From a virus: DNA of 64,000 bases. The notes beneath the pieces are model-generated. The model saw only the letters and a program-made list of their open reading frames with translations. It was not told the DNA's origin and did not search any database. Below, in pieces: positions 3,682 to 48,102 of the stretch. Location: positions 1 to 64,000 of the IMG/VR virus record IMGVR_UViG_3300042261_001186; one strand, given 5' to 3'. Both the position numbers and the translations under genes were made by a program. Within the stretch, counting starts at the first letter, position 1; every line of letters begins with the position of its first letter.

Positions 3682-4227
3682 ATGATAAAAGATAAAGAAA
3701 AAATACTTATACAAACATTATATAATTTCTATAAGGTAGAAGAACCTAAGAAAAAAGAAATATTATGGCCATCAAGTTTGTCCCCAGTTGAATTTACAGA
3801 TGGTGATCCAGTTATGTATGATGATCAAGATGGTAAAAAAAGAGCTGGTATATATAAAGGTTTTAGAAAAGAAGATGGTAAGTATAAAATTCAATTTGTT
3901 GATAATGGTGGGATAAGATATTGTTCTAGAAATAGAGTAAAAAAAATAGAAACAAAAGAAGAACCTAAAATAACTAAACAAGAATTAGATAAAATTCAAA
4001 AATTAATTAGAATTCTTAATCAAATGGTTGCAGATGGTGATTTATCACAAGAAGCTGTAGATGTTTTTGTTAAAGATTTAGAGATAGAGAAAAAACATAA
4101 ATTACTTGATCCTTATAATGAAGAAAATTGGGATGAAGATGTTCAAATAATAAAGAAAACACCTATTCAACAACCTGGTATTACATGGAAACCAGCAGAA
4201 GATAGACCTGCCTATAGAGGCTGTTAA
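3682..4227 (+). CDS. Hypothetical protein with SH3/Tudor-like beta domain and DPxxEExW tag
   Basis: FTDGDPVMY..G.Y..YKIQF; LLDPYNEENW. Confidence 0.65.
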   Translation: MIKDKEKILIQTLYNFYKVEEPKKKEILWPSSLSPVEFTDGDPVMYDDQDGKKRAGIYKGFRKEDGKYKIQFVDNGGIRYCSRNRVKKIETKEEPKITKQELDKIQKLIRILNQMVADGDLSQEAVDVFVKDLEIEKKHKLLDPYNEENWDEDVQIIKKTPIQQPGITWKPAEDRPAYRGC

Positions 4228-4237
4228 AACTAAAATT

Positions 4238-5104
4238 ATGATATTACATAACAAAGAAGTATTCCCAAAGACAATATATTGTCTTACAGATGGCATTGCC
4301 GAAGAAGTAAAAAGACCTTTTTTCAATATACAAATTAAACTAAATGGTTGTAATGCAAATTGTGAATTTTGTATTAGTAAAACTGGTAAGAAATTCAATG
4401 AAGACCTATTTTTTGATAAACTGACTGAGATAAGAGAAAAGGCTTTCATTAAAAGACTTAATATAACTGGTGGTGAACCAACAATCAATTTTGAATTATA
4501 TAACAGAATAGTTAGAAAATTAAGAGAATTATTACCTGAAACATTCATAGTCCTTAATACTAATGGATATAATTTTGAAAAAGTATTTGAATCTGATTCA
4601 CATAAATACCTTAATAATATTCAATTAAGTAGACATCATTATATTGATGAAATCAATAATAAAATATTAGGATTCAAATCTGTACCAAGAGAACTTATTA
4701 AGAAAATTAATGAAGATTTAGAACATAAATTTTTAAATTTATCATGTAATTTAATAAAAGGATACATTGATAAAGATGAAGAAGTTTATAAGTATTTAGA
4801 TGATGCTAGTGATTTAGATATAAGATGGGTTGGTTTTGTATCATTAATACCTTTGAATGATTTCTGTAAAGAAAATTATATAGATTTTGAGAGTTTAAAT
4901 CTTACAAATAAAAGATTAATTCTTATGCAAAGTCATTGTTTAAATGACACTTGTAAATGTGCAGATTACCTTTATGTACCTAATGATTTAAGTTTTCCAA
5001 TAAAAGTGTATAATAAAATTATTAAAAAATCAAATGTAAAACACATACTTGTGTTTGATGGTGAGAATTTCAATGTTGGTTTTGATGGTGAATTATTGGC
5101 TTAA
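4238..5104 (+). CDS. Radical SAM protein
   Basis: CNANCEFC (CX3CX2C), ITGGEPT, LNTNG. Confidence 0.93.
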   Translation: MILHNKEVFPKTIYCLTDGIAEEVKRPFFNIQIKLNGCNANCEFCISKTGKKFNEDLFFDKLTEIREKAFIKRLNITGGEPTINFELYNRIVRKLRELLPETFIVLNTNGYNFEKVFESDSHKYLNNIQLSRHHYIDEINNKILGFKSVPRELIKKINEDLEHKFLNLSCNLIKGYIDKDEEVYKYLDDASDLDIRWVGFVSLIPLNDFCKENYIDFESLNLTNKRLILMQSHCLNDTCKCADYLYVPNDLSFPIKVYNKIIKKSNVKHILVFDGENFNVGFDGELLA

Positions 5105-5670
5105 ATTTTATTTTCATATTTTAATTTAAGTAATAAATATTCAGTTACTATATCAAAAACTTTCATTTGATCTATATCTCCCAAACTTATTTTAACAACT
5201 CTATTTTCTTCAGTAACTTGTACACTAGATTGTTTGAAATCATTGTAATTCATTGGAAGTAAACATATGTGATACTGACCAACATTATTAACATCTTTGA
5301 AAAGAACTTTATCTACTTCAATAGGAAATAATTGATTAAGAACAATACCTGTTTTTTCATGTAATATTCTTCTAACATTTTGTGTTTCTGTCTGATCATC
5401 ATTGAAACTATCTTTGATACTAGTTAAGTAATAGTCTATTGTGTTATATTCAGATTTATCTTTATATTTAAATTTGAATGCAGGACATTTCTCATATTTA
5501 AGAAGTATGTATCCTTCATCTTTAAAATAAGGTAATATAACAACTTCAGCATCACTTATTATGATATCTTTGTCACCAAATTTGATGATAGATAATTCAT
5601 CATTTTTGAATCTTTCCTCATTTTGTTCTTGTTGAGGTTCTGATTTTTTCATTCTAGTAAATTTTTCCAT
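5101..5670 (-). CDS. Degenerate Nudix-fold protein
   Basis: VVILPY...ILL...TETQNVRRILHEKTGI resembles a Nudix box lacking key Glu/Gly residues. Confidence 0.5.
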   Translation of the reverse strand: MEKFTRMKKSEPQQEQNEERFKNDELSIIKFGDKDIIISDAEVVILPYFKDEGYILLKYEKCPAFKFKYKDKSEYNTIDYYLTSIKDSFNDDQTETQNVRRILHEKTGIVLNQLFPIEVDKVLFKDVNNVGQYHICLLPMNYNDFKQSSVQVTEENRVVKISLGDIDQMKVFDIVTEYLLLKLKYENKI

Positions 5671-5685
5671 ATTTATGTTTTATTT

Positions 5686-6939
5686 TTATTCATCCCAATC
5701 TTCTTCACCTAAAGGATCATTTTCAGAAAATATTTGTTTTGGTTCATATATTTCTAAATCATTTGGGTCACAATATTGTGACATAAAAAACATAGACCCT
5801 GGTGGTTTAATTCTTATAAATATTGGAAATTTAAATGTAGGTTCTATTCTTTGTATTTTCCCAATATGTCTTGATTCTTTGTGTCTAACAACATCACCAA
5901 CTTTAAAATCCTTTATTTCTAAAGATTCATTAGTATCATCCCAATCTTCTTCACCTAATGGATCTATTTCTGATATTCTTGGTTTTGGGATGGTTACTCT
6001 ACCAGTAACATACATATTAACAACATCATCAACATCCAATATGAATATATTTTCTCTGTCATTAACAAAATATACATTACCATTAATTATTTCATAATGT
6101 AGCAAAAAAATATCAAAGTATTTATCTTCTTTGAATTTACGCCAAGAATTACCTATCCTTACTTGTCTTGTTGTGAAAAAAACATTTTTTCTTGTTATTA
6201 TTATTCTATCTAAATATTTTTTTATTTTATTGAGTAAAATGTTACGATCTGCAATTTTAAGTAATTCATCAATATCAACCATATTTTCTGTTTTAGTCAA
6301 ATATTCATTCAATGGTTCTTTAATAGGTTTAAATCCTTTATCATTGAAATAGTTTCCAAAATTAGGATCTTTGATGTCTACTTCACCTTCATATCTTCTT
6401 TTTCTGAAAATATTGAAATTTTTATTAAAGATATTGAAATTCAATTCATTAAGGTGTTCAATTGTCCAATCTTCTTCACCCAATGGGTCTATGTCTTTCA
6501 TTTGGTTTCTGAGTTGAGCTTCTCTATTTTTATAATCCTCTATTTCATCCTTATCATATATTTTCACAGAATAGTCATCTTCATTGAATTTTGCCATATA
6601 TATGCCAGTTCCAGATTTGTTGAATTCATCTATCATTTTTTTTATCCTACTTGTCACACCTATTCTAGCATTTTCACCCCAATTAGGAAGATAGATTCCA
6701 TATTCATCATAAGGCTCCCATCCTTCAGGTCTGAATCCAGCTTCACTTTTCAAGAAAATTTTATCACCATCTATTTTGACACTTAAATCATTGAATTCTC
6801 TGATACCTCCCCAAGTAGGATTACTGAATCTGTATCTATTAACAAATCTTTTGAACATCTCTATTTTAGATAGATTTGTCAAAGGATCTGGGATTTCTTC
6901 TTTTTTTCTTTTAAATTCCTCGAAAACTTTTATCATCAA
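5686..6939 (-). CDS. Multi-module putative internal head polyprotein with three DPLGEEDW tags
   Basis: Leader MIKVFEEF; DIDPLGEEDW, EIDPLGEEDW and C-terminal NDPLGEEDWDE; last module FKVGDVVRH (KOW/SH3-like). Confidence 0.75.
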   Translation of the reverse strand: MMIKVFEEFKRKKEEIPDPLTNLSKIEMFKRFVNRYRFSNPTWGGIREFNDLSVKIDGDKIFLKSEAGFRPEGWEPYDEYGIYLPNWGENARIGVTSRIKKMIDEFNKSGTGIYMAKFNEDDYSVKIYDKDEIEDYKNREAQLRNQMKDIDPLGEEDWTIEHLNELNFNIFNKNFNIFRKRRYEGEVDIKDPNFGNYFNDKGFKPIKEPLNEYLTKTENMVDIDELLKIADRNILLNKIKKYLDRIIITRKNVFFTTRQVRIGNSWRKFKEDKYFDIFLLHYEIINGNVYFVNDRENIFILDVDDVVNMYVTGRVTIPKPRISEIDPLGEEDWDDTNESLEIKDFKVGDVVRHKESRHIGKIQRIEPTFKFPIFIRIKPPGSMFFMSQYCDPNDLEIYEPKQIFSENDPLGEEDWDE

Positions 6940-7037
6940 AACTAAACGTTTTTTTCTTTATATATAAAAAAAAGAATATATAATTTTAATATATAAGATT
7001 AATTATTTAACTTTACAAAAAAATAAACTCAAGTTAT

Positions 7038-7559
7038 ATGAAATTCAAAGATTGGTTTAATAGAAATAGCGAAGATGAAGCACCTGCCAAAAAATATGGT
7101 AATGTAAAAGAAGGCAAGACTGCAGCTGATTGGTTCAGTGGAGATAATGATGATGATGATGCTGAAGCTGAAGAAAGACGTGCTGAACAAGAATATCAAA
7201 TGCAAGAGAAAGAAAGGATGCGTCTTGAAAAGGAAAAGCGTATGGCTGGAAAAGACAAGAAACAAGAAAAAGTCTTTCAAGTTGGAGATGTTTTAGTCTT
7301 AACTAATAAAAAACCATCTAGTAAAATGCCTGCAGATGCATGGGATTTCTTGAATACATATAAAACATTCACCGTACAATCTGTTAATGATCATGGTAAA
7401 ATCAATTTGGGTTGTAGAATATCAAAAAATGAGGATGGTAAAGGTGTAGAGAAAATATTTAATTTTGGTACAGACAGATTTGATTATGCAGATGCTTCAA
7501 AAAGAGTTGCACCAGGTATAAAACCTATGGTAGATGACATTGAAGAAGATGTAGACTAA
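7038..7559 (+). CDS. Hypothetical protein with FQVGDVL beta-barrel module
   Basis: 173-aa ORF with TAATATATA upstream and a terminator downstream. Confidence 0.7.
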   Translation: MKFKDWFNRNSEDEAPAKKYGNVKEGKTAADWFSGDNDDDDAEAEERRAEQEYQMQEKERMRLEKEKRMAGKDKKQEKVFQVGDVLVLTNKKPSSKMPADAWDFLNTYKTFTVQSVNDHGKINLGCRISKNEDGKGVEKIFNFGTDRFDYADASKRVAPGIKPMVDDIEEDVD

Positions 7560-7560
7560 T

Positions 7561-7589
7561 AAAAAAAGGAGAATTTATTCTCCTTTTTT
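7561..7589. terminator. Bidirectional intrinsic terminator
   Basis: A7-GGAGAAT-TT-ATTCTCC-T6 between convergent genes. Confidence 0.75.
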
Positions 7590-9903: not shown

Positions 9904-9912
9904 TAATTCAAA

Positions 9913-10308: not shown

Positions 10309-10377
10309 ATAATTATCATTAATTTTTAATTAATTTAATAGTATTATATATAAAAATATTTTTACCTGTTTTTAAAT

Positions 10378-10404
10378 AAAAAAACCCTAAATTTTAGGGT
10401 TTTT
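10378..10404. terminator. Intrinsic terminator
   Basis: A7-CCCTAA-ATT-TTAGGG-T5 hairpin. Confidence 0.7.
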
Positions 10405-10409
10405 AATTC

Positions 10410-10760
10410 TTAATTTGTATCCAAAATTCTCTAAATCTTTTCTGTGTTTTTGTCTCTGTTGTCATCTGGTAATATCATATCAAAATTAACATAAACCCAA
10501 TTAAACATTCTATTGTTTCCAGCAGGTATTGCTACAACTGTTCCACTACCATATAAAAAATCAAAAACTCTATCACCAACTTCAGGGGTTTCACCATAGT
10601 CTATTCTCTATATTCTGGCTGGTCTTTGGATAACTACACCTTCTGCTCTCCTGTTTGGTCCCCTACCCCTTTGTAATACTATATTTTCATCCCATACTTC
10701 TTCATCATATGGATCTATGTCACTATGAACATTTTCAAATTTTTTGAATTTTTTTATCAT
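10410..10760 (-). pseudogene. Leader- and tag-bearing gene interrupted by in-frame TAG (absent from ORF track)
   Basis: Manual translation MIKKFKKFENVHSDIDPYDEEVW...RPARI*RIDYGETPEVGDRVFDFLYGSGTVV...TEKI*RILDTN*; TAG at 10608-10610 and 10431-10433. Confidence 0.7.
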
Positions 10761-10761
10761 A

Positions 10762-11250
10762 TTAACCATTCCAATTTTCTTCACCTAAAGGATCTATTCT
10801 ATTGAAAACATTGGTGTCATTGGTTTTGGCCCATTCAGCATAACCTTTTAAGAAATCTATCAAGTCTTGCATTTTATCTAATGTTTCCTTTGAATAAGTA
10901 TCTATCTCTAAATATCTCATAACATCTTCATCTTCAAGATATCCTATGATTTTTGGATCTAATCCATAAAAAGCCAAGTCTTCAAAAGATAATTCTGCAT
11001 CAGTTGATTTGATATATTTCAAATGTGCTAATTCCCTTGCCAAATCAGATAATTTATTATAACCAGATTTATTAACAAAAGTTTGTTTAACTGCTCTTAG
11101 ATTACCTCTAACAAATATATCTTCTATGATCGAAACTATAGTTAAAACACCATTGAGGAATTTATTTTTACCTATTTTTCTCATTATACCAACAATTCTT
11201 CTTGTCATTGGGTTTTTAGCTTCATTGAATTTTTCAAATTTTGTTAACAT
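10762..11250 (-). CDS. Putative internal head protein with C-terminal DPLGEENW tag
   Basis: Leader MLTKFEKFNE; ends IDPLGEENWNG. Confidence 0.75.
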   Translation of the reverse strand: MLTKFEKFNEAKNPMTRRIVGIMRKIGKNKFLNGVLTIVSIIEDIFVRGNLRAVKQTFVNKSGYNKLSDLARELAHLKYIKSTDAELSFEDLAFYGLDPKIIGYLEDEDVMRYLEIDTYSKETLDKMQDLIDFLKGYAEWAKTNDTNVFNRIDPLGEENWNG

Positions 11251-11266
11251 ATTAAATTATTATTTT

Positions 11267-13323: not shown

Positions 13324-14040
13324 TTAATTTTTATCTGATGGCATATCTTTCTCATCTCTACAATCTTCACACCATCCCCTAATTAGGTCATCTGGTCTGT
13401 TGAATTGTCCACAATGTATACATCTACAATCTTCTCTACAGAAATTACAAATACCATTTGTCATCAAAATGTTAGGTGTGTAAGCACCACACATTCTACA
13501 TTCACTTCCTCTCATTTCCATCCTATCAAAATAATTGTCATCATCATAATAAGGATTCCATATATTTTCTTCTTCATTCCAATTTTCTTCACCATAAGGA
13601 TCAAGTTCTGTACTTTCAAATCTGTAACCCCATTCTTCTTCATCATATGGGTCTATGTCTGGATTCATGAGTTTTATTATTTTTTTACCATTTGAAACAT
13701 AAACTTTTAGGTCTTCTCCAGGATTACCACCATATCTACCAAGATATCTTATACCTTTGTCATCTGTTATAACTATTTGACTATCATCATTGACTTTTAC
13801 ATCTTTTATTATACAACTTACTCTTTTCTCATAATTCTGGTCCAAGGCACAAGGAAAACTCACTAATTTTCCAATCATCAATTCTTTCAATTTGTTTTCA
13901 AAATCTATAAAAATACCATAAGGATAATATTCACCATTACGAATAGTTTTTTGAAATTCTTTAGATAAACCAGAAAAAGTAAATGGTTGTATATCTAAAT
14001 CTAAATTTTCTTTTATGTATTTTTTGAATTTTTTAATCAT
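13324..14040 (-). CDS. Putative internal head protein with two tags and a C-terminal Cys-rich Zn-binding module
   Basis: Leader MIKKFKKYIKE; DIDPYDEEEW..FES, ELDPYGEENW; CRMC, CNFC, CIHC, CEDC. Confidence 0.75.
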   Translation of the reverse strand: MIKKFKKYIKENLDLDIQPFTFSGLSKEFQKTIRNGEYYPYGIFIDFENKLKELMIGKLVSFPCALDQNYEKRVSCIIKDVKVNDDSQIVITDDKGIRYLGRYGGNPGEDLKVYVSNGKKIIKLMNPDIDPYDEEEWGYRFESTELDPYGEENWNEEENIWNPYYDDDNYFDRMEMRGSECRMCGAYTPNILMTNGICNFCREDCRCIHCGQFNRPDDLIRGWCEDCRDEKDMPSDKN

Positions 14041-20095: not shown

Positions 20096-23000
20096 ATGAA
20101 TCCAAGAGATAATATTAGTGGTAAACAGATAGAAGACTCAACAATACAACAAAATAAACTTAATTTATCTAATCCAGGTTTTTTTGATTCTAATTCTGCA
20201 GCAACAGTTAGCTATGTTAATGCTTTATATTTATCTGGTATAACGAGTGGTATAACATCTGGTACTAGTGGTGTTTCTGGTAGTTCAGGAACATCAGGTA
20301 AAGATGGTAATTTTTTTGGAACATCAGGATCATCAGGTGAAAGTGGATCATCAGGTACTGCAGGTAGTTCAGGAACATCAGGTTCAGGAACATCAGGTAG
20401 TTCAGGTAAATCAGGTAGAGATGGTGTAGATGGTATTGATGGGACATCAGGATTAACAGGTTCTAGTGGTACATCAGGTAAAGATGGTAATTTTTTTGGA
20501 ACATCAGGATCATCAGGTGAAAGTGGATCATCAGGTACTGCAGGTAGTTCAGGAACATCAGGTTCAGGAACATCAGGTAGTTCAGGTAAATCTGGTAGAG
20601 ATGGTGAAAGAGGTTATGATGGTGCAGATGGAACTGCAGGAACAAGTGGTGAAACAGATGGTACTTCTGGTACTTCAGGTGTAGGTATTGGTGGTACTGC
20701 AGGAACAAGTGGTGAAACAGATGGTACTTCTGGTACTTCAGGTACATCAGGAACAAGTGGTGAAACAGATGGTACATCAGGAAGTTCAGGTATAAGTGGA
20801 ACATCAGGTAGTTCAGGTAAAACTGGTAGTTCAGGTACATCAGGTAGTTCAGGTACTTCAATAAGAAAAGAGGTTTGGAGTTCAACAACCAATTATTTTT
20901 TAGGTGATATAGTTAAATATTCTTCTGAATTCGGTGGTGATTTATATGAATACATAGCAGTTAATTCTAATATAAATGTACCACCAGATACAAGTTTTAC
21001 TTATTGGAATCTTATAGGAATAAGACATGAAAATTGGATTACTGAAATTTATTATGTTTTAGGTGACATTGTTAAATATAATAATTTAATGTATGTTGCT
21101 ATAAATAATGGTTTAGGTGTACCTCCAATAGGTGATCCACAATCAGCTTTATATTGGTTATCTATGGGAAGTGGTAGTTCAGGAACAAGTGGTACTTCAG
21201 GTGAAACAGATGGTACATCAGGTAGTTCAGGAAGATCAGGTACATCAGGTAGTTCAGGAAGATCAGGTACATCAGGTAGTTCAGGTATTACAGGAACATC
21301 AGGTACATCAGGTGAAGGTTCTCCGGGTATAGATGGCACATCAGGTACATCAGGTACAGATGGATTATTGCCAGAAATAGGAAATCAATATGATATAATA
21401 TTTAGAGAAACTGGTACAACTTATGGATATAATACAACTAGTGGTTTCACTTTTAATTCGGCCACAGATTATTTGAAAATAGGTAATATTTCAGAAGCAA
21501 CCACTAGAATTCATATTTATGGTGAAAATGTAGGTTCATATTTGAATGTGGCTGATGTTAGTCCAGATTCAGCAATTTTCATTGATGGTAATTCAACATC
21601 AGATAAAAGTATAATTTATGGTGATGCTGGTGTAAAGAAATGGGCAACTCAAACATATAGAGAAGAAAATGGAGATTTTTATTATATTTATAACATACAG
21701 ACAAACAATATAAGTCAGGTTTATTCAAGATCTGGTCGTTCTGGAATCAATAAACAATCTAATGTTATGGATTATCATCCACAATATATGGATAAAGTTA
21801 ATGGTTTATTGAATGATATGGAAATTAGAGGTTGGTATGATAGATTATACCAAGCATTGTATGAAGTTCAAATATCTGTTCAAGGATCACCTGATCAATT
21901 TCATTGGAGAAAATCTAGAGATAATGGTGTTACTTGGAATAGTTGGTCACCAAATATTTTATGTGTTACGGGTTCTACAAACGCTGTTGATTTAGAACAT
22001 TATATAACAGTTTATTTTAAACATTTAACTGGACATACAACTTTTGATAGATGGCAATTTACAGCATTTCCACAATTACCACAAGGCTCCTTTACAGTAG
22101 CACCAAATGGTTATACTGAAATTTTAATAACAGATGATTATACACAACCAATACCAGTATATTCTGATGTAACTAATGAATTATCTACAACTTTTACTGG
22201 ATTTGAGGAATGTTTAGCTGACACAACATCAGCCATATTTGTAGGTTGGGAATTACCTTATAATTCAATATATTTTAATAATGGTCAAAATGGTAGTGGA
22301 GTAACATTAAAATTTGAATATTATTCACCATCAGGATGGACAGAAATACAAACTGGAGAAAATCTTGGAACAATACAAGATTTTACTGATAATTTATCAA
22401 AAGATGGTAAAGTAGAATGGGATAGACAAGAATTGAATTGGGTTGAATATCAATTACCAGGTAAAGGTTCTAGTTATTTGTTGTATTGGGTTAGAATAAC
22501 AACAACTACAAATCCATATACAACACCAGTACTTGATTCTCTTTCTTTAGGTGGAACAGTGCGTTTAGGTGTTTATAGTGCCCATATGGATGCAAATCCT
22601 TCTTTTTATGTAGATGGTACAGGTAGAGTTATAATGGGTGATTACAATAATGTACTAACAAATAGTCCATATACTAATATTGGTTATTTAGGTATTAATA
22701 CAACAGAACCACAGGATATAGTTCATATTTTTGGTTTAGATAATGCATCTGATAATACAGATACTATGCATAATCATATTATGATTGATGGTGTACCAGA
22801 TGGTGATAAAGGTATATTGTTTGCAGATAATGGAGTAAAGAAATTTGAAGATTATTTATATCGTAATGAAGGTGGTGAATTTAAATACACATATAGTTAT
22901 GCTAATGATAAAGATATAATGGTTATATCTGAAGGTGGTAGATTTGGTATAAATTGGTCATCTCCAAATATGAATCCACATGCTGAATATTTAAATACAA

Positions 23001-34324: not shown

Positions 34325-34663
34325 ATGACATTGACTTTTAATAAATATTTTGAAAATCATTCTGATGTTGACACATATAGTGAAGAAAATTGGGACAACT
34401 ATGATGAACAAAAAATAACAAGTAGATATAATATTTATCTGTGTGTTAGGGATAACCAAGATTTTGCAGCTGGACATGTGTACATTGTTGTTGGAATAAA
34501 TCAAAATGTGATAGGGCCGAATATAGTTGATACTAGAGTAAAGGTTAAAGGATTGATGGCAGATGAATATATAAATATAGATTTTAATGCTGGTGAAGAC
34601 CCTTATAGAAGAGCTTTAGCTAATGGATCATTAATTTATATAGGAAAATTAGATGAATTTTAA
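34325..34663 (+). CDS. Putative internal head protein with N-terminal tag variant
   Basis: MTLTFNKYFENHSDVDTYSEENW. Confidence 0.7.
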   Translation: MTLTFNKYFENHSDVDTYSEENWDNYDEQKITSRYNIYLCVRDNQDFAAGHVYIVVGINQNVIGPNIVDTRVKVKGLMADEYINIDFNAGEDPYRRALANGSLIYIGKLDEF

Positions 34664-36750: not shown

Positions 36751-37482
36751 ATGAGAAACCTAAAACATAGATTAGATTATATAAGAGAGGAATTGAAAGA
36801 TTATAAAGATGTTGATGATTGGTTAAAAAAATCTGAATGGAAACCTCTTAAACATGAAAAACGCATCCCTTTATCACAAGTGGAAAAACTCTGTTATGAT
36901 GCATTTGTAATAGGTTCTAAAGGTGATATGAGTTTTAAAACTTGGTGGAGTGACCAAAAATTGAATGAAAATATGTTACCAAAACAACCTATCAAAAAAG
37001 TTAAATGTTTAGAATGTGGAGAAAGTGTTTGTGATAATTTAGGTTACAAAATAGGACATTTATATAACAGACATAATTGTAAACCAAGTGTTGATGATTA
37101 CATTGCAAAAAATATGTTGAAAAAATATTTCCCTTCTATTGTAAAGGAATCTAATTCTTCTAAGTATAATTGGATGCAACATCCAGATTATCCAGAACCA
37201 CCTGTTCTTAATGAAACAATTACTAACCCTGATGTTGATCCTTATGGTGAAGAGAATTGGGGACCAACAAAAAGATATAAAGTTTACAAAACTGTTTATG
37301 AAAGATCTCGTGTAGAATATGTTGGTTATGTTGATGCAGAAAATGAAGAAGAAGCAATCAACAAAAGTGATTACATTACTAATTGGGAACAATATAATAA
37401 TGATATAATAAATGAAGATATTGAAAATATAACTGCTGTTGAAACAGATGATGAAGTGATATATTTTCAAAATGGTAATTAA
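36751..37482 (+). CDS. Multi-module putative internal protein with C2H2-like Zn finger and DPYGEENW tag
   Basis: CLECG...HLYNRH; modules separated by LNE/VKES/LNE; DVDPYGEENW. Confidence 0.7.
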   Translation: MRNLKHRLDYIREELKDYKDVDDWLKKSEWKPLKHEKRIPLSQVEKLCYDAFVIGSKGDMSFKTWWSDQKLNENMLPKQPIKKVKCLECGESVCDNLGYKIGHLYNRHNCKPSVDDYIAKNMLKKYFPSIVKESNSSKYNWMQHPDYPEPPVLNETITNPDVDPYGEENWGPTKRYKVYKTVYERSRVEYVGYVDAENEEEAINKSDYITNWEQYNNDIINEDIENITAVETDDEVIYFQNGN

Positions 37483-37620: not shown

Positions 37621-39132
37621 ATGGTTGTAGATTTCGAATATTCGAATAAAATTCTAAAAGTATCTTATATTGGGGAAAATGGTAATGTAAAAATGAAACA
37701 TTACAATTGGCCTAATCCTCAAAAATATGTTGTCTGTCCCGATGATGATAGAGATAAAAGTGGTAAATATACCACATGGGATGGTAATGCAGTTAAATTA
37801 GTCTACACTAGAAATCCAGATAGATATTCAGTTTATGATTACTTAGATAGTTTACCTGAAGAAGAACAAGAAGTAATCTTCAAATATAATGAACCAGAAA
37901 TATTCTTCATAGATATTGAAAATGAAATTTTAGATTCAAAACCTACCCCTCAATTAGCACAAGGTGCAATTCAATCCATTTCAATAGTTGTTAGAAATAA
38001 AGTCCTTGTTATGGGAACAAGTGACTTATCTAAAGACCAAGAGAAATCAATAAGAGAAGATATCAATAATTATTTTGCCAAATTCAATACAGATTATGAT
38101 TTCAAATTTATAAGATATAAGAATGAGTATGATATGATGCTCAACTTCTTTGAAAAATATGTACCTAAAATGCCAGTGGTTACTGGATGGAATTTCACAG
38201 AATATGACTGGGTCTATTTAGTTAATAGGGCTAGGAAAATTGGAGTTGATCCAACTGCAGCATCTTTAACTAGAGTTTTGAAACAACCATTCAATAAGAT
38301 GAACAAAAAGAAAAACCAAAAAGAATCTTTTTGTGAACATCCAGCACATAAAATAGTTGTGGATTATATGGAATTGTATGAAAAATACAATTCCACAATT
38401 AAAATCAAAGAATCAAATAGTTTGGATTTTGTCGCAGATGGTATTCTTGGAGTTAAGAAAGTTAACTATGAAGGCTCATTAAAAACATTGATAAACAGCG
38501 ATTACAAGAAGTTTATCTTCTATAATGCTGTTGACTCTATTCTTGTACAGAAAATACATGAAACAACTAAATGGGTTGATATTCTTTATGGTATTTCTAC
38601 ACTTTCTAAAATCAAAATACTTGATGCTTATTCTACTTTACCTGTAACAGAAGGTATTCTTAGAAGGAAATTAAAGAAAGAGAAGAATGTTATACTTTGT
38701 AAACTTGAAAGAGATTTTACAAATGACACCTTGATAATGGAAGCAGAAAGAGGTGTTAAGGGTGGTTGGGTTAAAGACCCAGTTAAAGGTATGGCAATGT
38801 GGGTGGCTTGTTATGACTTTTCATCACTTTATCCTACAACCATAAGACAATTCAACATTTCTGCTGATTCATATAAAGGTATTTTATCTCCAACAAAAGA
38901 CTTTGCTGTTTTCAATGGACATAGAGTTGAATTGGAAGATGGAGACATAGTTCTTTTGAATGGTACTGTGTTCAAAAATGAAGTGGGTATAATCAACCAA
39001 ACGATGACCGACATCTTTGCTGATAGGAGAAGGTACAAAGGGTATATGAATTTTGAACATGAGGACCTAGAGGCCTTTAAAAAGGATTTAAAGATAGCCG
39101 AGGAAGAGTTGTTATCCTGCTTACAGAATTAA
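37621..39132 (+). CDS. Family B DNA polymerase, N-terminal subunit (split gp43A-like)
   Basis: Exo I DIENE, Exo II GWNFTEYD, Exo III YNAVD, GGWV..P, motif A YDFSSLYP; ends after the first fingers helix with no motif B/C. Confidence 0.9.
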   Translation: MVVDFEYSNKILKVSYIGENGNVKMKHYNWPNPQKYVVCPDDDRDKSGKYTTWDGNAVKLVYTRNPDRYSVYDYLDSLPEEEQEVIFKYNEPEIFFIDIENEILDSKPTPQLAQGAIQSISIVVRNKVLVMGTSDLSKDQEKSIREDINNYFAKFNTDYDFKFIRYKNEYDMMLNFFEKYVPKMPVVTGWNFTEYDWVYLVNRARKIGVDPTAASLTRVLKQPFNKMNKKKNQKESFCEHPAHKIVVDYMELYEKYNSTIKIKESNSLDFVADGILGVKKVNYEGSLKTLINSDYKKFIFYNAVDSILVQKIHETTKWVDILYGISTLSKIKILDAYSTLPVTEGILRRKLKKEKNVILCKLERDFTNDTLIMEAERGVKGGWVKDPVKGMAMWVACYDFSSLYPTTIRQFNISADSYKGILSPTKDFAVFNGHRVELEDGDIVLLNGTVFKNEVGIINQTMTDIFADRRRYKGYMNFEHEDLEAFKKDLKIAEEELLSCLQN

Positions 39133-41566: not shown

Positions 41567-41680
41567 AATTATTATATGTTAATTATATATTAATGTTTCA
41601 AAATTAATAAAACTTGGCCTTTTTTATTATATATATAGTTAAGGAATTTATTTTTTGGGGATATTGTCCCCAAAAAAAAA

Positions 41681-42556: not shown

Positions 42557-42567
42557 CCCCTTTTTTT
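42541..42567 (+). terminator. Intrinsic terminator
   Basis: AAAGGGGTTAA-T-TTAACCCC-T7. Confidence 0.75.
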
Positions 42568-42663
42568 ATTAAACTTATTAAAATTATCATTATATAATAT
42601 ATGATAGATAAGATTTACGTCATTTTTTATTTATCATATTAATTTAATTATTTTTGGTTAGTT

Positions 42664-42709
42664 AAAAGAACAGTTAGTGGGCAAAGAACGTGCTAACTGT
42701 TCTTTTTTT
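42664..42709 (+). terminator. Long hairpin with U-tract
   Basis: AAAAGAACAGTTAG-15 nt-CTAACTGTTCTTTT. Confidence 0.55.
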
Positions 42710-42746
42710 ATTTTTTCTGTTTTTTTTATTTAATATATAGTTTCAT

Positions 42747-44159: not shown

Positions 44160-44167
44160 AGAGATAT

Positions 44168-44635
44168 ATGATAACAAAATATGAAGAATTTATAAATGAG
44201 AATATTTTAGACAAAATTATGGGTGGTATTGATCGTGGTATTGGTAAATTTCATACTTCTACTAGACCTATTAGAAAAGCTATTAGTACAACTTTCATAC
44301 CTGAAAAAATGTATAAAACAATTAAAAATAAATTTGAACAAATTAAATTAAATTTTGATTTTGAAAATTTAGAATTAGTAGCTGACCCAATTGATAGAGA
44401 TACAAAATTTTTGGTTTACACTGATGAAGATGAGATAAAATTGGAAATAAATATGTTTTATATTCCAATAATATATTTTAATGGTGAAGATATAACAAGT
44501 AAATTGAATTCTTTTTTGACTATGGATATTTATAAGTATTTTATTACAAAATGGAATTATGGTAATACAAATAAAATATCTGGTCAAATTTTTTCAGATG
44601 TTGATTCTTTAGGAGAAGAAGATTGGTCTAAGTAA
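44168..44635 (+). CDS. Putative internal head protein with C-terminal tag
   Basis: MITKYEEFINE; ends DVDSLGEEDWSK. Confidence 0.72.
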   Translation: MITKYEEFINENILDKIMGGIDRGIGKFHTSTRPIRKAISTTFIPEKMYKTIKNKFEQIKLNFDFENLELVADPIDRDTKFLVYTDEDEIKLEINMFYIPIIYFNGEDITSKLNSFLTMDIYKYFITKWNYGNTNKISGQIFSDVDSLGEEDWSK

Positions 44636-44644
44636 TTAAATTAT

Positions 44645-45031
44645 ATGATAAAGAATTTTAAATTATTTGAAGAATTTTCAACAAAAAGATACTACAAGGT
44701 AGTCACAAAAGATTTAAAATCTTTAGGTTTGAGAAAAAATCCTACTATAATGACTTTTCCAATTGGTGAATGGGTTTATGAACAAAAACCAACTAAGGAC
44801 CAAGGTGGTTGGGGTGGAACGGGTGGTATTTGGGTGGCTAATGGATTACAAGGTGGTAAAGGATTGATGAAATATCTAAGAAAAAAAGCAATAAAGGAAG
44901 ATAAACCAGAATTTCTTGAATGTAGATTATTTGAAGTTGAAATAGGGGAGATTTTATATTCAAATTCTTATAGGACAAAGACAGACAAAGTAAAATTAAA
45001 AAAAGAAATTAAAAATGATAAAGAATTTTAA
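44645..45031 (+). CDS. Putative internal head protein
   Basis: MIKNFKLFEE leader, identical to the next two genes. Confidence 0.72.
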   Translation: MIKNFKLFEEFSTKRYYKVVTKDLKSLGLRKNPTIMTFPIGEWVYEQKPTKDQGGWGGTGGIWVANGLQGGKGLMKYLRKKAIKEDKPEFLECRLFEVEIGEILYSNSYRTKTDKVKLKKEIKNDKEF

Positions 45032-45554
45032 ATTATTTGAAACCACACATAAAGATGTTGATCCGCTCGGTGAAGAGAAATGGGAAGAAGATTCATCTTA
45101 TAATATATTGTATGTTTCCTCTATGGAAACGACTGATCATTATTTTTACCTAGATTGTGTGGAAGGATACATAGATGAATCATATTACACACCTGAAGGT
45201 AAACTTCTATATGTTGATTTCTCTTATATAATAAATGGTGATAGAAAGAAAGCTTGCAGTCATTCTCCTTATGTGGTGGATAGAATTGAAGATTTTGATT
45301 TGGGGAAAATGAAAAGTCTTTATTATAATTTGGAAGGTGACACCAGAAAAAAATATTATGATAAATCTGGACATTGTACTTTCATACGTAAGGAAATAAT
45401 GACAAAAGAAGAATTCCTTAAAATATCCCATGACATATTTGATGAAAATGCAAATAATTTGATACAAATACTTAAAAAAAAGATAATAGAAACTGAAAAT
45501 AGAATAGAGAAATTGAAAAAAAGAGAAATAGGTTTCAACACCAACATAGAATGA
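45015..45554 (+). CDS. Putative internal head protein with N-terminal tag
   Basis: MIKNFKLFETTHKDVDPLGEEKW. Confidence 0.72.
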   Translation: MIKNFKLFETTHKDVDPLGEEKWEEDSSYNILYVSSMETTDHYFYLDCVEGYIDESYYTPEGKLLYVDFSYIINGDRKKACSHSPYVVDRIEDFDLGKMKSLYYNLEGDTRKKYYDKSGHCTFIRKEIMTKEEFLKISHDIFDENANNLIQILKKKIIETENRIEKLKKREIGFNTNIE

Positions 45555-45871
45555 TAAAGAATTTTAAATTGTTTGAAAATAAACACAAAGACATAGACCC
45601 ATTTAGTGAAGAACAATGGGAGGATGCTGAAATTGAAATAGGTACTAACATATATTTGAAGAAAGATAGGAATTATTTTAATAGACACAAAAACAAATTG
45701 TATGGTACCGTTGTTGACATAGATGACAAAGGTATAGTCGAAATGGTCAACTATGTTTATATTGAAAATGGAAAAACTTTCACCAAGAAAAGAATAACAT
45801 GGAAAGTTTCAATGAAATATTTAAAGCACCATATAAGAACTATGGAATATACTTTATACGCTAATAATTAA
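45551..45871 (+). CDS. Putative internal head protein with N-terminal tag
   Basis: MIKNFKLFENKHKDIDPFSEEQW. Confidence 0.72.
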   Translation: MIKNFKLFENKHKDIDPFSEEQWEDAEIEIGTNIYLKKDRNYFNRHKNKLYGTVVDIDDKGIVEMVNYVYIENGKTFTKKRITWKVSMKYLKHHIRTMEYTLYANN

Positions 45872-45914
45872 TGAATTTTATTTTTAATATATAGAATAAA
45901 ATCAATTTGATTTT

Positions 45915-47384
45915 ATGGATTTGTTATTGAGAGATAGGAATAAAATCACAAATATAGTAGATGTATTAAGGAAAAACAAGCCTGAAGGTGGTGCAAATTT
46001 TTTTGATAGAGTTGATGAATTTGTGAGAGACCCTAAAAATGTTGATATGGTATTCAATCTCATAAATAAAATCAAACAAGATTATGGTCAAAATTTTAAT
46101 CTTATAGTCACAGGAAAATTTGGTGATTGGGTTTTTAATCTCATAAAAACCAATAAAATCAATGTAAATGGAGTAGTTATACATGTTAGTGGATCACTTA
46201 GAAGTGCAGCAAAAAATAAAACATTTCAAATAATAGGTGGAAATGAAAATCAAGCATATAATAAAAAATTTATATTATTGGATGATAGTTTTTATTCAGG
46301 TACTACAAAGAAAGAAATAGATAAACATTTAAATAAATATAATTCTAAAATAATAAGTACATATGTTTTCTATGATGGGTCTTTTCAAAAAAGACCAGAT
46401 GTATTCTCTGTTTATAGGCATTGTAATTATAATAAAGAAGATATCTTACCAGTAAAGAAATTACTTAGTATACTTAATGGAATAGATGATGCCAATATAC
46501 CTTATGATTTGTTGGAAAATCAAATAATGATAGGTCAGATAAGAAGTGTTAAGGAATTATTAAGGGAGATACAGATAGTCAGAGGTAAGTTTGGCAAACA
46601 GAATTTAGATATCAAATCTTATGGATATAAAAGGGAATATGAACATAAGAAAATGAAGAAATATGGGGATTTTGTTAACGAGTCAAAAAAAAAATATTTG
46701 ACCTTTGACGATTTAGAATTCAAAAAACACCCACTCGCAGAAGTTTATGATGAAATGGTTGCCATTGGTGGTTTTGATCCATTTGGGGATGAAAGGAAAC
46801 CATTGCAACAGGCAAAAATGAAATTTGAAAATGGTTATGGTGTATCTGTGTTATTGGGAGATTTATTTTATTCTAATGGTGTAGATACTTATGAAATCAT
46901 GTGCTTTGATGATAAAAATAAATTCATAGGGGATCCACTTGGTCATTTGACTAAAGATGAGGTCAATCATGAAATGATGAAATTACAGAGAAGGAAACAT
47001 CCTATTCAAAAATTCACAACAGAAGATCCTTATGGTGAAGAAGATTGGTCAGATGATATATATGAATCTATTATTAATAAAGGTGACTTTGAAATGACTA
47101 CAATTCAATTATGGCATAAATATATAAGATTTGGAAGAAAAGAAACTATAGATAGATTTAGGAAAAATGTTCTTGAATTCAAAACAGATAGTAAAGGATT
47201 AAAAGAATATAAAGGAAAGATAATAGGGTTTTATCCTTTACATAATAATAAGACAAGGGAGATAATAATATTATTTGACACTAAAGAATATGGGACTTTG
47301 AAAGTAAATGATAAATATCCTATAATAGTAAAATCTGAAGTGAATGAACATTTGAAAAAATATGAAGATTTTATAAATGATTAA
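45915..47384 (+). CDS. Phosphoribosyltransferase-domain fusion / putative polyprotein
   Basis: PRPP loop KFILLDDSFYSGTT; internal leader KMKKYGDFVNES; TEDPYGEEDW..IYES; ends LKKYEDFIND. Confidence 0.78.
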   Translation: MDLLLRDRNKITNIVDVLRKNKPEGGANFFDRVDEFVRDPKNVDMVFNLINKIKQDYGQNFNLIVTGKFGDWVFNLIKTNKINVNGVVIHVSGSLRSAAKNKTFQIIGGNENQAYNKKFILLDDSFYSGTTKKEIDKHLNKYNSKIISTYVFYDGSFQKRPDVFSVYRHCNYNKEDILPVKKLLSILNGIDDANIPYDLLENQIMIGQIRSVKELLREIQIVRGKFGKQNLDIKSYGYKREYEHKKMKKYGDFVNESKKKYLTFDDLEFKKHPLAEVYDEMVAIGGFDPFGDERKPLQQAKMKFENGYGVSVLLGDLFYSNGVDTYEIMCFDDKNKFIGDPLGHLTKDEVNHEMMKLQRRKHPIQKFTTEDPYGEEDWSDDIYESIINKGDFEMTTIQLWHKYIRFGRKETIDRFRKNVLEFKTDSKGLKEYKGKIIGFYPLHNNKTREIIILFDTKEYGTLKVNDKYPIIVKSEVNEHLKKYEDFIND

Positions 47385-48102
47385 AAATTTCCAATCATAT
47401 AATGAAAGTGTAGTTCCAAATTCAGTTGTATTCAATATTAGGGATTATTGTACAACTTATGATAATATTCATAAGTTGAATTATAGAAATGTTGAAACAG
47501 GTGATGTTTTTAGGATATTTGATTTGTTCAAAGGGACTTTTGGTTTGTTTATAAATGATAATGATTTTAGAATATTTCAAGAAAATGATACAGAATTTAG
47601 ACTTTTTGATACAAAAAAAGGGAAACATCTTGAATTATGGCCAAATATGGGCTGGAAAAATACTTGGATTAATCAGACAAATAAAAATGATAAAGATAAT
47701 AAAAAATGGCTTGATAAATATAGAATAGGTAGAGAAGATAAAAAGAAAGTAATAATTCCTATTGAAGGTTATATAACAACATATGATGTAAATAGATTTT
47801 TAACTGATATAAGAACAGAACTTAAATATGGGTATAGAACTTTGATTGGTTATATTAAGCAAGGATATCGAGAAGAACAACTTATTGGAGTAAGACAACC
47901 TAGATATATAACAATTCAAGAAAATAATGGTTATGAAGGAAGAAATACTAATTTCAATGTAGTTTATATAGATATGTCCAATGGTAGTGACCCCTATGGG
48001 ACTAGGGGAATATTAAATATTGCTAAACCTGTTAAATTAAAACAGACTTTAAGAAAATTCACTGAAATAGATCCATTAGGAGAGGAAGATTGGGATGATT
48101 AA
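47377..48102 (+). CDS. Putative internal head protein with C-terminal tag
   Basis: MIKNFQSYNES; ends EIDPLGEEDWDD. Confidence 0.72.
   Translation: MIKNFQSYNESVVPNSVVFNIRDYCTTYDNIHKLNYRNVETGDVFRIFDLFKGTFGLFINDNDFRIFQENDTEFRLFDTKKGKHLELWPNMGWKNTWINQTNKNDKDNKKWLDKYRIGREDKKKVIIPIEGYITTYDVNRFLTDIRTELKYGYRTLIGYIKQGYREEQLIGVRQPRYITIQENNGYEGRNTNFNVVYIDMSNGSDPYGTRGILNIAKPVKLKQTLRKFTEIDPLGEEDWDD

What the first reader, a model, noticed from the sequence alone, without database searches (positions are those of the whole stretch)
3682..48102. Shared short tag D-P-[LYF]-x-E-E-x-W on unrelated capsid-targeted proteins: candidate undescribed cargo-addressing system
Seen: 15 copies in 12 otherwise unrelated ORFs. 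They are 3682 (DPYNEENW), 5686 (DPLGEEDW x3), 10760 (DPYDEEVW), 10762 (DPLGEENW), 13324 (DPYDEEEW, DPYGEENW), 34325 (DTYSEENW), 36751 (DPYGEENW), 44168 (DSLGEEDW), 45015 (DPLGEEKW), 45551 (DPFSEEQW), 45915 (DPYGEEDW) and 47377 (DPLGEEDW). The tag usually sits at the extreme C-terminus, just after the N-terminal leader, or at internal module boundaries. Eleven of the 12 proteins also carry an N-terminal or internal capsid-targeting-like leader. The tag is absent from tdk, rtcB, the polymerase and the outer structural proteins. Codons vary between copies, so the conservation is at protein level. I know of no described phage motif like this. Inference: it is a second address signal that survives protease maturation, binding for example the core/portal for ordered ejection, the phage ClpC, or a host target after injection.
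Basis: partly seen in the sequence, partly recalled or inferred. Interest (0 to 1): 0.92.

Follow-up and report, generated by a model that had tools for sequence, protein, structure and literature searches.

The report
Portable acidic tag on huge-phage proteins
One lineage of uncultured giant lake phages attaches the same eight-residue acidic, tryptophan-containing peptide to roughly a tenth or more of its otherwise unrelated proteins; it looks like a docking label, most likely linked to head assembly, but what reads it is unknown.

Summary
All 15 copies of D-[PST]-[LYF]-x-E-E-x-W sit in frame in the 12 named ORFs. The 130-kb contig has 51 copies, against 0.002-0.006 expected. The scan had already noted this tag in other windows of this genome.

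New here:
- **Distribution.** The tag is confined to one sub-clade of Mahaphage-type huge phages. The 735-kb LR756501 has 105 copies, and four more distant huge phages have none. IMG/VR holds at least 116 stretches, at 19-51% GC. Near the capsid gene, tags occur only where its identity to ours is 75% or more.
- **Nature.** It behaves as a disordered, portable short linear motif. It sits after a T4-like leader, at C-termini or in linkers, and AlphaFold2 gives it low confidence. It is kept in some orthologues and gained or lost in others.
- **Carriers.** They evolve fast and include small proteins made of pieces of capsid, portal, head protease and scaffold.

Best reading, at confidence 0.4: a docking peptide for the prohead interior. 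No reader was found and nothing shows packaging. In cells the motif turns up only as single copies, mostly in enolase.

The parts
4108..4131 (+). Tag DPYNEENW, internal (residue 143 of 181) in ORF 3682-4227. It lies between a Tudor/SH3-like plus helical part and a basic tail.
   Evidence: The tag is kept at the same column in 3 of 3 orthologues. Weak Tudor match, E 0.009.
5686..6939 (-). Carrier with three DPLGEEDW tags (6466-6489, 5941-5964, 5695-5718). The last is C-terminal with 2 residues after W. The start MIKVFEEF is leader-like.
   Evidence: No Pfam family. No homologue in LR756501.
10434..10769 (-). Leader plus tag (MIKKFKKFENVHSDI-DPYDEEVW, tag at 10692-10715). The frame is closed by an in-frame TAG at 10608-10610 and then stays open for 58 more codons that encode an SH3-like stretch.
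10762..11250 (-). Carrier with leader MLTKFEKFNEA and C-terminal tag DPLGEENW-NG (10771-10794).
   Evidence: The LR756501 relative m0130 has no tag.
13324..14040 (-). Carrier with leader MIKKFKKYIKEN and two tags 9 residues apart (13630-13653 DPYDEEEW, 13579-13602 DPYGEENW), followed by a Cys-rich zinc-ribbon-like tail.
   Evidence: The zinc-ribbon module recurs behind tags in 3 other loci.
34325..34663 (+). Carrier MTLTFNKYFENHSDV-DTYSEENW (tag at 34370-34393, Thr in place of Pro).
   Evidence: My gene caller missed it because of an overlapping minus-strand frame.
36751..37482 (+). Carrier with an internal tag DPYGEENW (37237-37260).
   Evidence: The LR756501 relative m0113 aligns only to residues 1-134 and has no tag.
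44168..44635 (+). Carrier with leader MITKYEEFINEN and C-terminal tag DSLGEEDW-SK (44603-44626).
45015..45554 (+). Carrier MIKNFKLFETTHKDV-DPLGEEKW (tag at 45060-45083).
45551..45871 (+). Carrier MIKNFKLFENKHKDI-DPFSEEQW (tag at 45596-45619).
   Evidence: A search of 5.8 billion proteins found only itself.
45915..47384 (+). Carrier with a phosphoribosyltransferase-like N-terminal domain, an internal leader-like KKYGDFVNES, and tag DPYGEEDW (47025-47048) in the linker between two C-terminal domains.
   Evidence: The tag is at the same column in 7 of 7 relatives that hold this region. AlphaFold2 on residues 240-489 puts the tag block at pLDDT 56 and the next ten residues below 50, between domains at 83-90.
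47377..48102 (+). Carrier with leader MIKNFQSYNES and C-terminal tag DPLGEEDW-DD (48070-48093).
55710..58181 (-). Context, untagged: prohead protease (residues 1-255) fused to a scaffold-like part. That part holds 14 heptads [YF]xx[YF][ILV][AGS]E, 13 of them at exact 14-residue spacing, which resemble the leaders. The C-terminal domain has clade-specific gains of basic residues.
53832..55631 (-). Context, untagged: major capsid protein. Pieces of it recur as small tagged ORFs elsewhere in this contig and in related phages.
58282..60099 (-). Context, untagged: portal protein. A piece (residues about 277-339) recurs in small tagged ORFs of related phages.

Best explanation
The tag is a lineage-specific, intrinsically disordered short linear motif. 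Its wider consensus is [S/N]-[D/E]-[I/V/L]-D-P-[Y/F/L]-G-E-E-[D/N]-W-[D/E]-[D/E].

My best reading is that it works as a docking peptide read in trans by one common receptor, and that this receptor belongs to the T4-type prohead (core or inner shell). The tag would then help load or hold a large, fast-evolving set of accessory proteins in the head, alongside or instead of the older leader that resembles a capsid targeting sequence.

**Shown:** the motif is real, selected at protein level, portable, disordered in models, confined to one sub-clade, enriched on leader-bearing proteins, and present on small proteins built from head-protein pieces.

**Inferred:** that it binds anything, that the partner is in the prohead, and that carriers are packaged or ejected.
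For: 1. **Selection on the peptide.** 43-51 copies are observed against 0.002-0.006 expected. Tag codon use matches the genome's in this contig. The same peptide occurs in loci of 19-51% GC.
2. **Portable and dispensable.** The tag is gained or lost among orthologues: g169 and L034 have it in a linker insertion and m1009 does not; g031 lacks it and m0116 and L100 have it. Elsewhere it is strictly kept, in 3 of 3 g008 orthologues and in 7 of 7 g046 relatives that hold the region.
3. **Disordered and exposed.**
   - Of 390 tags in 327 unique carriers, 83 are N-terminal, 138 C-terminal and 169 internal.
   - In an AlphaFold2 model of a leader-tag-LRR protein (mean pLDDT 91.5), residues 1-23 are almost all below 50 although they are conserved across the 17-sequence alignment (D, P, E, E and W invariant, Y and G nearly so).
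   - In g046 the tag lies in the dip between two confident domains.
4. **Link to the head system.**
   - The leader-by-tag odds ratio is 11.3 here and 5.1 in LR756501.
   - The leaders match the 14 heptads of the protease-scaffold protein.
   - gp21-type proteases cut after L/I-x-E, and the T4 capsid targeting sequence is a 10-residue propeptide (PMC9026906, passages read).
5. **Carriers that are head proteins by homology.** Three have scaffold repeats (L023, L069, L104). Three are truncated protease paralogues (L045, L038, m0015). About 10 hold capsid-protein pieces and 3 hold portal pieces. These are the top sources among the 39 large untagged proteins that were matched by any of the 327 tagged queries. 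A diverged prohead-protease paralogue is reported in giant phage SPN3US (PMC5694885, abstract).
6. **Carriers behave like T4 internal proteins**, which are diverse and share only their targeting peptide (PMC3012670, passage). Only 7 of 31 carriers, against 75 of 156 non-carriers, have an LR756501 orthologue covering 60% or more, at median identity 34% against 61%.
7. **A T4 precedent for C-terminal propeptides:** Alt is processed at both ends (PMC9026906, passage).
8. **Weak and post hoc.** The tag clade has a cluster of gained basic residues in the C-terminal domain of the protease-scaffold protein: E>H at 783, N>K at 787, E>K at 788, S>K at 818, V>R at 819.
Against: - No proteomic or binding data exist for any of these phages.
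- 61 of 89 carriers in LR756501 and 13 of 31 here have no leader by regex, so the link to the leader is statistical, not obligatory.
- The leader system and every domain of the head module also exist in tagless relatives. No receptor domain that arose together with the tag was found.
- The capsid protein shows 11 clade-specific positions and no gain of basic residues.
- Carriers make up 8.5% of LR756501 genes (89 of 1051) and 17% of the genes on this contig (31 of 187). That is a very large share for capsid cargo.
- Some carriers are enzymes with no obvious reason to be packaged, such as a CCA-adding/polyA-polymerase-type enzyme and a phosphoribosyltransferase-like protein.
- Why pieces of capsid, portal and protease should themselves be cargo is unexplained.
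Confidence: 0.4

Rival explanations
1. The tag is a docking peptide for a hub outside the capsid. Candidates are a phage AAA+ unfoldase or protease adaptor (a degron or timing signal), a phage-built cytoplasmic compartment or condensate, or a host protein. It would mark the accessory proteome for a common fate unrelated to packaging.
For: - It has the same motif properties as in the best explanation: disordered, at termini or in linkers, portable.
- Most carriers lack a leader.
- Carriers include enzymes and 25 of 130 scanned carriers with leucine-rich repeats, which are typical binders of other proteins.
- The share of the proteome is large.
- 87 of 138 C-terminal tags leave exactly two residues after W, as in motifs that are read together with the free C-terminus.
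- Clp-type ATPases exist in this contig and in LR756501.
Against: - Enrichment on leader-bearing proteins (odds ratios 5-11).
- Carriers that are pieces of scaffold, protease, capsid and portal proteins point to the head.
- The window's Clp-type ATPase is not a conserved syntenic gene of the tag clade.
- No candidate hub was identified.
Confidence: 0.22
2. The tag is mainly a recognition or cleavage site of a specific protease, or a self-cleaving Asp-Pro site. It would release modules from polyproteins and remove N- and C-terminal propeptides.
For: - All three placements are places where cutting makes sense: behind a leader, before a short C-terminal tail, and between modules.
- Multi-tag proteins look like strings of modules, with 3-5 tags in g112, g114 and g117.
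- An 8-residue, highly specific motif is typical of viral polyprotein proteases (recalled).
- A gp21-type protease is encoded next to the capsid gene.
Against: - gp21-type enzymes cut after Glu in L/I-x-E (PMC9026906, passage), and the tag is not of that form.
- A hydrophobic-x-Glu site stands directly before only 11-28% of tags, and Asp is about as frequent as Glu at that position.
- Removing the last 2-12 residues of small single-domain proteins has no evident purpose unless the tail is an address first.
- No second protease was identified.
Confidence: 0.12
3. The tag has no reader. It is a favoured acidic, helix-starting linker or cap, for solubility, for keeping DNA away, or for binding cations, and it spread because it is harmless at module borders.
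For: - It lies in linkers and at termini.
- Nearly the same octapeptide occurs inside the folded enolase barrel in many bacteria. 49 of 60 single-copy genomic matches share that sequence context, and 2 of 2 tested are enolase. The sequence can therefore be a plain structural element.
Against: A passive linker would not keep D, P, E, E and W invariant in 390 copies across 19-51% GC. It would not hold an invariant but unstructured N-terminal position, and it would not be kept at the same column in 7 of 7 relatives with diverged flanks.
Confidence: 0.08
4. The conserved unit works at nucleic-acid level, with the peptide as a by-product. It could be a 24-base recombination site for shuffling modules, or a translational-coupling element at gene ends.
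For: - In LR756501 the tag codons are biased well beyond genome usage: CCT 69 of 103, TAC 78 of 104, GGT 69 of 102 (p 1e-13, 1e-16, 1e-5).
- Tags sit at module and gene borders.
- In the 106-110 kb gene array of this contig, 7 of 8 C-terminal tags read TGG-GAG-G, which is Shine-Dalgarno-like, just before the next start.
- Many metagenome contigs match the window only over the 24 bases of a tag.
Against: - In this contig codon use inside tags equals genome usage.
- The peptide is kept across 19-51% GC.
- The DNA pattern is in frame in a called gene in 103 of 105 hits in LR756501 and 41 of 47 here. By position the rest here fall in small uncalled frames or just behind in-frame stops. The backwards-read control gives 0.
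- N-terminal and internal tags are not near gene starts.

This may explain how the tag spreads, but not why it is kept.
Confidence: 0.05

Closest known systems
Capsid targeting sequence of phage T4 internal proteins IPI-III and Alt
   Same: It is a short portable peptide and the only thing shared by diverse, fast-evolving proteins (PMC3012670, PMC9026906, passages). These phages also have a gp21-type prohead protease and leaders of the same look. The tag is enriched on those leader proteins.
   Different: The tag is a different, acidic, Trp-containing octapeptide. Only 83 of 390 copies are N-terminal, and those lie after the presumed cleavage site of the leader. It does not end in L/I-x-E. It arose later than the leader, in one sub-clade. 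Targeting is untested.
Encapsulin cargo-loading peptides
   Same: Short terminal peptides on unrelated cargo, read by the inner face of an HK97-fold shell. 138 of 390 tags are C-terminal.
   Different: There is no sequence likeness as far as I recall. Tags also occur N-terminally and internally. The capsid protein shows no clade-specific change that would suggest a new pocket. Binding is untested.
Propeptide-bearing ejection or inner-body proteins of giant phages phiKZ and SPN3US
   Same: Many head-internal proteins are processed by a gp21-type protease. A diverged protease paralogue is reported in SPN3US (PMC5694885, abstract and passages; PMC9026906, passages).
   Different: Those use long propeptides of 100 residues or more, and no shared short motif downstream of the cut is described. 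The phages here are an unrelated clade.
Sequence look-alikes: an enolase barrel segment and the archaeal Nop10 linker
   Same: Enolases of many bacteria hold S-[IL]-E-D-P-[FY]-G-E-E-D-W. Archaeal Nop10 holds R-F-S-P-E-D-P-Y-G-E, the best match of the tag profile in the Protein Data Bank.
   Different: The Nop10 match has E 0.43, which is chance level. In enolase the stretch is part of a fold, not a tag. No TruB/Cbf5-type partner is encoded in four phage genomes searched. Both are best read as convergence.

Membership tests
Short linear motif in a disordered region | Ten residues or fewer with a few invariant positions and variable flanks | tested here: met
   D, E, E and W are invariant and P is in 98-99% of 390 tags. 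The flanks are only biased.
Short linear motif in a disordered region | Lies outside folded domains and is predicted disordered | tested here: met
   Residues 1-23 are almost all at pLDDT below 50 beside an LRR domain above 94. In g046 the tag block scores 56 and the following linker below 50, between domains at 83-90, so there it is less clear-cut.
Short linear motif in a disordered region | Gained and lost among orthologues; present on unrelated proteins | tested here: met
Short linear motif in a disordered region | Binds a defined partner domain | not testable with these tools
   No partner was identified.
T4-type capsid targeting sequence | N-terminal propeptide of about 10-20 residues | tested here: not met
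   307 of 390 tags are internal or C-terminal. The separate leader does meet this feature.
T4-type capsid targeting sequence | Ends in an L/I-x-E site cut by the prohead protease | tested here: not met
   The tag ends in W-[D/E]. A hydrophobic-x-E site directly before it is seen in only 11-28% of tags.
T4-type capsid targeting sequence | Sufficient to load a foreign protein into the prohead core | not testable with these tools
   This needs an experiment, and no cultured relative exists.
Encapsulin-type cargo-loading peptide | Terminal peptide that binds the inner face of the HK97-fold shell protein | not tested
   The one complex job went to another candidate. The capsid protein shows no suggestive clade-specific changes.
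gp21-type cleavage site | Glu at P1 with Leu or Ile at P3 | tested here: not met
   The tag itself has no such form. At the residue two before the tag's Asp, D and E are about equally frequent.

The most novel reading that the evidence does not exclude
A clade of huge phages has invented an eight-residue address label. Together with a T4-like leader, it loads a hundred or more different fast-evolving proteins per genome into the capsid for delivery into the next host. The load would include leucine-rich-repeat binders, enzymes, zinc-ribbon proteins and truncated copies of its own capsid, portal and protease. That would be an injected effector arsenal far larger than any known for a phage, in which the head-protein fragments could act as decoys or as poisons of rival phages' assembly.
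Probability: 0.22. Interest if true: 0.85.

Novelty: new variant of a known kind. Interest (0 to 1): 0.74.

Why it matters
**Scientific value**
- If the tag is an address, it is the first short shared sorting signal found in the largest known phages.
- It would define their cargo or accessory proteome by sequence alone: 89 proteins in the 735-kb genome and hundreds in metagenomes.
- Questions that cannot be approached for uncultured viruses would become testable, such as what huge capsids carry besides DNA and how cargo is chosen.

**Practical value**
- A compact tag that loads proteins into a very large capsid would be a useful packaging handle.

Tried and rejected
**Tests that gave no answer**
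- **Complex prediction.** I tested the C-terminal 224 residues of the protease-scaffold protein (alignment A2, 54 rows) against 34-residue C-terminal tag tails (A3, 77 rows). The verdict was 'no answer', score 0.00, and no controls were run. This is not evidence either way. Capsid protein, portal and the Clp-type ATPase were not tested because the cap is one job.
- **Sequencing runs.** No RNA holder is listed, which says nothing about expression.
- **Read laying.** The many 'joints' and loose ends at tag positions have sides of 21-26 letters. I read them as other tag-bearing genes of the metagenome matching the 24-base tag, not as real rearrangements. No variants inside tags were listed.

**Ideas rejected or left unsupported**
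- **A tag coupled to a following SH3-like domain: rejected.** Only 7 of 86 domain hits have a tag within 45 residues upstream.
- **g045 relatives.** A search of 5.8 billion proteins found only itself. A local iterative search among 198 modules found none.
- **A different tag in tagless relatives.** The 5-mer enrichment was dominated by internal repeats (scaffold heptads, SGTSG) and showed nothing in L002-L004. This was a weak test.
- **A receptor domain that arose with the tag.** Every head-module segment except a low-complexity Gly/Gln linker is also present in the tagless clade.
- **The Nop10 look-alike.** At E 0.43 it is chance level. No TruB_N family match was found in this contig, LR756501, LR756504 or LR745206. 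Host TruB was not tested.
- **Stop-codon recoding.** TAG closes only 7 of 187 called genes and one in-frame TAG was seen, but no general pattern was shown.

**Other searches**
- Earlier findings by words and by sequence returned nothing.
- Literature: 6 papers hold one of the motif strings, none about phages (listing only). 'Capsid targeting' has 0 occurrences in PMC7162821. The supplements of that paper, which I could not see, may hold annotation tables.

**Limits**
- Gene calls are from my own greedy longest-ORF script, not a trained gene finder. It missed ORF 34325-34663 and some small ORFs.
- The leader regexes are crude. Their hit rate is 1-2% at internal Met residues.
- In alignment A1 the references for minus-strand ORFs were shifted by one codon: the first Met was dropped and the stop included. 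This should not change the Pfam tallies.

Full report
**What the window is.** The window is the first 64 kb of a single 130,397-base contig with 28.6% GC. It encodes:
- a glutamyl-tRNA synthetase, a family-B DNA polymerase fragment, RtcB and a Clp-type AAA+ ATPase;
- a T4-like head module: portal (58282-60099), a prohead protease fused to a long scaffold-like part (55710-58181), and the major capsid protein (53832-55631), all on the minus strand.

Its closest named relative is the uncultured 735,411-base phage LR756501.1, with 74% polymerase identity and long synteny. A 735-kb genome is described as the largest of the 'Mahaphage' clade, predicted to infect Bacteroidetes (PMC7162821, passages read; the accession itself does not occur in that text). 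Near-identical contigs occur in lake-water metagenomes of two studies, one of which may be the source.

**Observation.** On the whole contig the motif D[PST][LYF]xEExW occurs 50 times in six frames, and 51 with a looser pattern. 43 of these lie in 31 of the 187 genes I called. Residue shuffling of those proteins gives 0.002 copies on average and the analytic expectation is 0.006. Codons vary at synonymous sites and match genome-wide usage.

**Where else the tag occurs.**
- A degenerate DNA pattern finds 105 copies in LR756501 (0 for the pattern read backwards). It finds none in LR756504, LR745206, LR756500 or Prevotella phage Lak-A2.
These loci hold 319 tags in 889 kb and span 19-51% GC.
- In one genome per prokaryote species (596 billion bases) the same pattern finds 60 stretches, each with a single copy. 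49 of them share the context of one roughly 430-residue protein, and 2 of 2 tested are enolase. Five or six are phage-like tails on short contigs binned as Bacteroidota or other taxa.
- Among 67 IMG/VR loci around relatives of the capsid protein, tags occur in 5 of 12 loci with 75% identity or more (8 tags) and in 0 of 55 loci with 69% or less.

The tag is therefore a recent invention of one sub-clade, after which it multiplied.

**Anatomy.** I pooled 327 unique carrier proteins from this contig, LR756501 and the IMG/VR loci. They hold 390 tags: 83 within 30 residues of the start, 138 within 6 residues of the end, and 169 internal.
- D, E, E and W are invariant by the search definition and P is in 98-99%. 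Y and G dominate outside this contig.
- Upstream there is a bias to [S/N]-[D/E]-[I/V/L]. Downstream there are acidic residues.
- C-terminal tags most often leave exactly two residues after W (87 of 138).
- N-terminal tags follow a leader of the form M-I-K-x-F-x-x-F-E.

In an AlphaFold2 model of a leader-tag-LRR protein (17-sequence alignment, mean pLDDT 91.5), residues 1-23 are almost all below pLDDT 50 (segments 1-18 and 20-23). The repeat domain from residue 31 is above 94. In the window protein 45915-47384 the tag lies in the confidence dip between two domains.

Orthologue comparisons show both strict retention and gain or loss:
- The tag is kept in 3 of 3 g008 orthologues and in 7 of 7 g046 relatives that hold the region.
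- In the g169 family it sits in a linker insertion present in 2 of 3 orthologues.
- g031 lacks it, and two orthologues carry it in a C-terminal extension.

These are the properties of a short linear motif read in trans.

**Who carries it.**
- Carriers are 31 of 187 called genes here and 89 of 1051 in LR756501.
- They are poorly conserved. 7 of 31 carriers, against 75 of 156 non-carriers, have an LR756501 orthologue covering 60% or more, at median identity 34% against 61%.
- Pfam finds little. Of 130 carriers of 150 residues or more, 25 have leucine-rich repeats and 2 match the prohead protease family. One each matches a CCA-adding/polyA-polymerase type, a TPM phosphatase and a few zinc-binding families.
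- In the window only a weak Tudor match and a sub-threshold phosphoribosyltransferase match appear.
- Replication and translation enzymes and the full-length capsid, portal and protease proteins are untagged.

**Link to the head system.** The leader is enriched among carriers, with odds ratio 11.3 here and 5.1 in LR756501. This also holds when carriers with only N-terminal tags are left out.

The leader resembles one unit of the scaffold part of the protease protein. That part has 14 heptads [YF]xx[YF][ILV][AGS]E, 13 of them spaced exactly 14 residues apart, each ending in a hydrophobic-x-Glu site. T4 gp21 cuts after L/I-x-E, and the first 10 residues of IPIII suffice for capsid targeting (PMC9026906, passages). 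The T4 leader sequence itself I only recall.

Leaders also occur in the tagless relatives, so the leader system is older than the tag.

The unexpected finding is that many small tagged ORFs are pieces of head proteins. About 10 match parts of the capsid protein, 7-8 match the protease or its scaffold repeats, and 3 match the portal. These proteins are the top sources among the 39 large untagged proteins that any tagged ORF matched.
- Two such ORFs lie on this contig (108962-109195 and 109298-109921), and others are in LR756501 (m0015, m0059).
- In locus L086, ten consecutive small genes end in the tag, and several of them are capsid or protease pieces in scrambled order.
- They are conserved between phages at about 30% identity, so they are not fresh debris.

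**Search for a reader.** Every segment of the head module is present in both the tagged and the tagless clade. The capsid protein has 11 clade-specific positions, none a gain of charge. The protease-scaffold protein has 42, with a cluster of gained basic residues in its last 40 residues. That made its C-terminal part my one candidate for a complex prediction. The outcome is reported under Tried and rejected only. No reader is identified.

**Nucleic-acid level.** In this contig nothing beyond the peptide is conserved. In LR756501 the tag codons are strongly biased to CCT, TAC and GGT. In the gene array at 106-110 kb of this contig the Trp-Glu codons read TGGGAGG just before the next start. I take these as signs of how the tag spreads (copying or recombination at the tag) and of dual use at gene ends. 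They do not explain why the tag is kept.

**Verdict.** The tag is a real, undescribed, clade-specific portable peptide.
- The best-supported mechanism is a docking label tied to the prohead interior (confidence 0.4).
- The main rival is a docking label for a hub outside the capsid (0.22).
- Lesser rivals are a processing site (0.12), a passive linker (0.08) and a nucleic-acid element (0.05).

It works like a targeting peptide but is not a member of the T4 targeting-sequence family, because two defining features are not met. Earlier notes of this scan on other windows of the same genome reached a similar reading. The additions here are the clade boundary, the census in LR756501 and IMG/VR, the disorder models, the orthologue gain and loss, the head-protein fragments, the codon contrast and the enolase and Nop10 look-alikes.

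Noticed in passing
Contig 108962-109195 and 109298-109921 (beyond the window); L086:1-3300; L038, L045, L063, L084, L089, L107; LR756501 m0015, m0059: Small ORFs ending in the tag are pieces of the major capsid protein, prohead protease, scaffold repeats or portal. They are arranged out of order in translationally chained arrays and are conserved between phages at about 30% identity. Their purpose is unexplained; decoys, assembly poisons and core components are all possible.
   Followed up: partly
window 55710-58181 (-): The prohead protease is fused to a scaffold-like part with 14 heptads [YF]xx[YF][ILV][AGS]E, 13 of them at exact 14-residue spacing. These look like the N-terminal leaders of many genes, so a leader may be one scaffold unit that co-assembles with the core. 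A Gly/Gln-rich linker and an SH3-like piece follow.
   Followed up: partly
window 10434-10769 (-): An in-frame TAG (10608-10610) splits a leader-tag-SH3-like gene, and the frame ends at a second TAG. TAG closes only 7 of 187 called genes. This could be a pseudogene, readthrough or local recoding.
   Followed up: partly
contig 92270 and 93355 (-), beyond the window: Two tag modules lie directly after in-frame TAA or TGA stops with no start codon. The frame of gene 92289-93134 stays open 100 codons beyond its stop. These may be broken polyprotein modules or readthrough.
   Followed up: no
contig 100088-106064 (+), and window about 59170-59270 (-): A second shared gene-end peptide in arrays, ...[YH]-[KE]-E-E-[ND]-I-E-W-[LVI], resembles a portal segment (...EYHDDVQWDD). 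Portal-piece ORFs of other phages end in ...KKDVEWE.
   Followed up: no
LR756501.1, whole record: Tag codons are biased to GAT-CCT-TAC-GGT far beyond genome usage (p 1e-13 to 1e-16), unlike in this contig. This suggests recent copying of the tag at DNA level in that genome.
   Followed up: partly
L122-L181 (prokaryote genomes): The exact octapeptide DP[FY]GEEDW is part of the conserved S-[IL]-E-D-P... strand-helix segment of enolase in lactobacilli, Patescibacteria, Pelagibacteraceae and others. In solved structures, archaeal Nop10 has RFSPEDPYGE.
   Followed up: partly
window 37621-39132 (+): The family-B DNA polymerase ORF is only 503 residues. It covers the exonuclease domain and the first third of the polymerase domain, so the gene may be split, as in LR756501 (504 residues).
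   Followed up: no
window 58282 to about 58560 (-): The portal ends in a long Gly/Phe/Met/Gln-rich low-complexity tail (GGGDFGGGGFGGG...AQMGGG...).
   Followed up: no
window 20096-31249 (+): A 3717-residue ORF is rich in SGTSG-type repeats. Its LR756501 counterpart is 2372 residues.
   Followed up: no
window 3682-4227 (+) and orthologues: Three orthologues end in a conserved ...[RS]-G-C terminus after a basic tail behind the tag.
   Followed up: no
whole contig: The genome tool lists this 130-kb linear record with a completeness estimate of 100. Its blocks are syntenic with separate parts of a 735-kb genome (about 58-145 kb and 695-730 kb of LR756501). Whether it is a fragment or a much smaller relative is open.
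   Followed up: no
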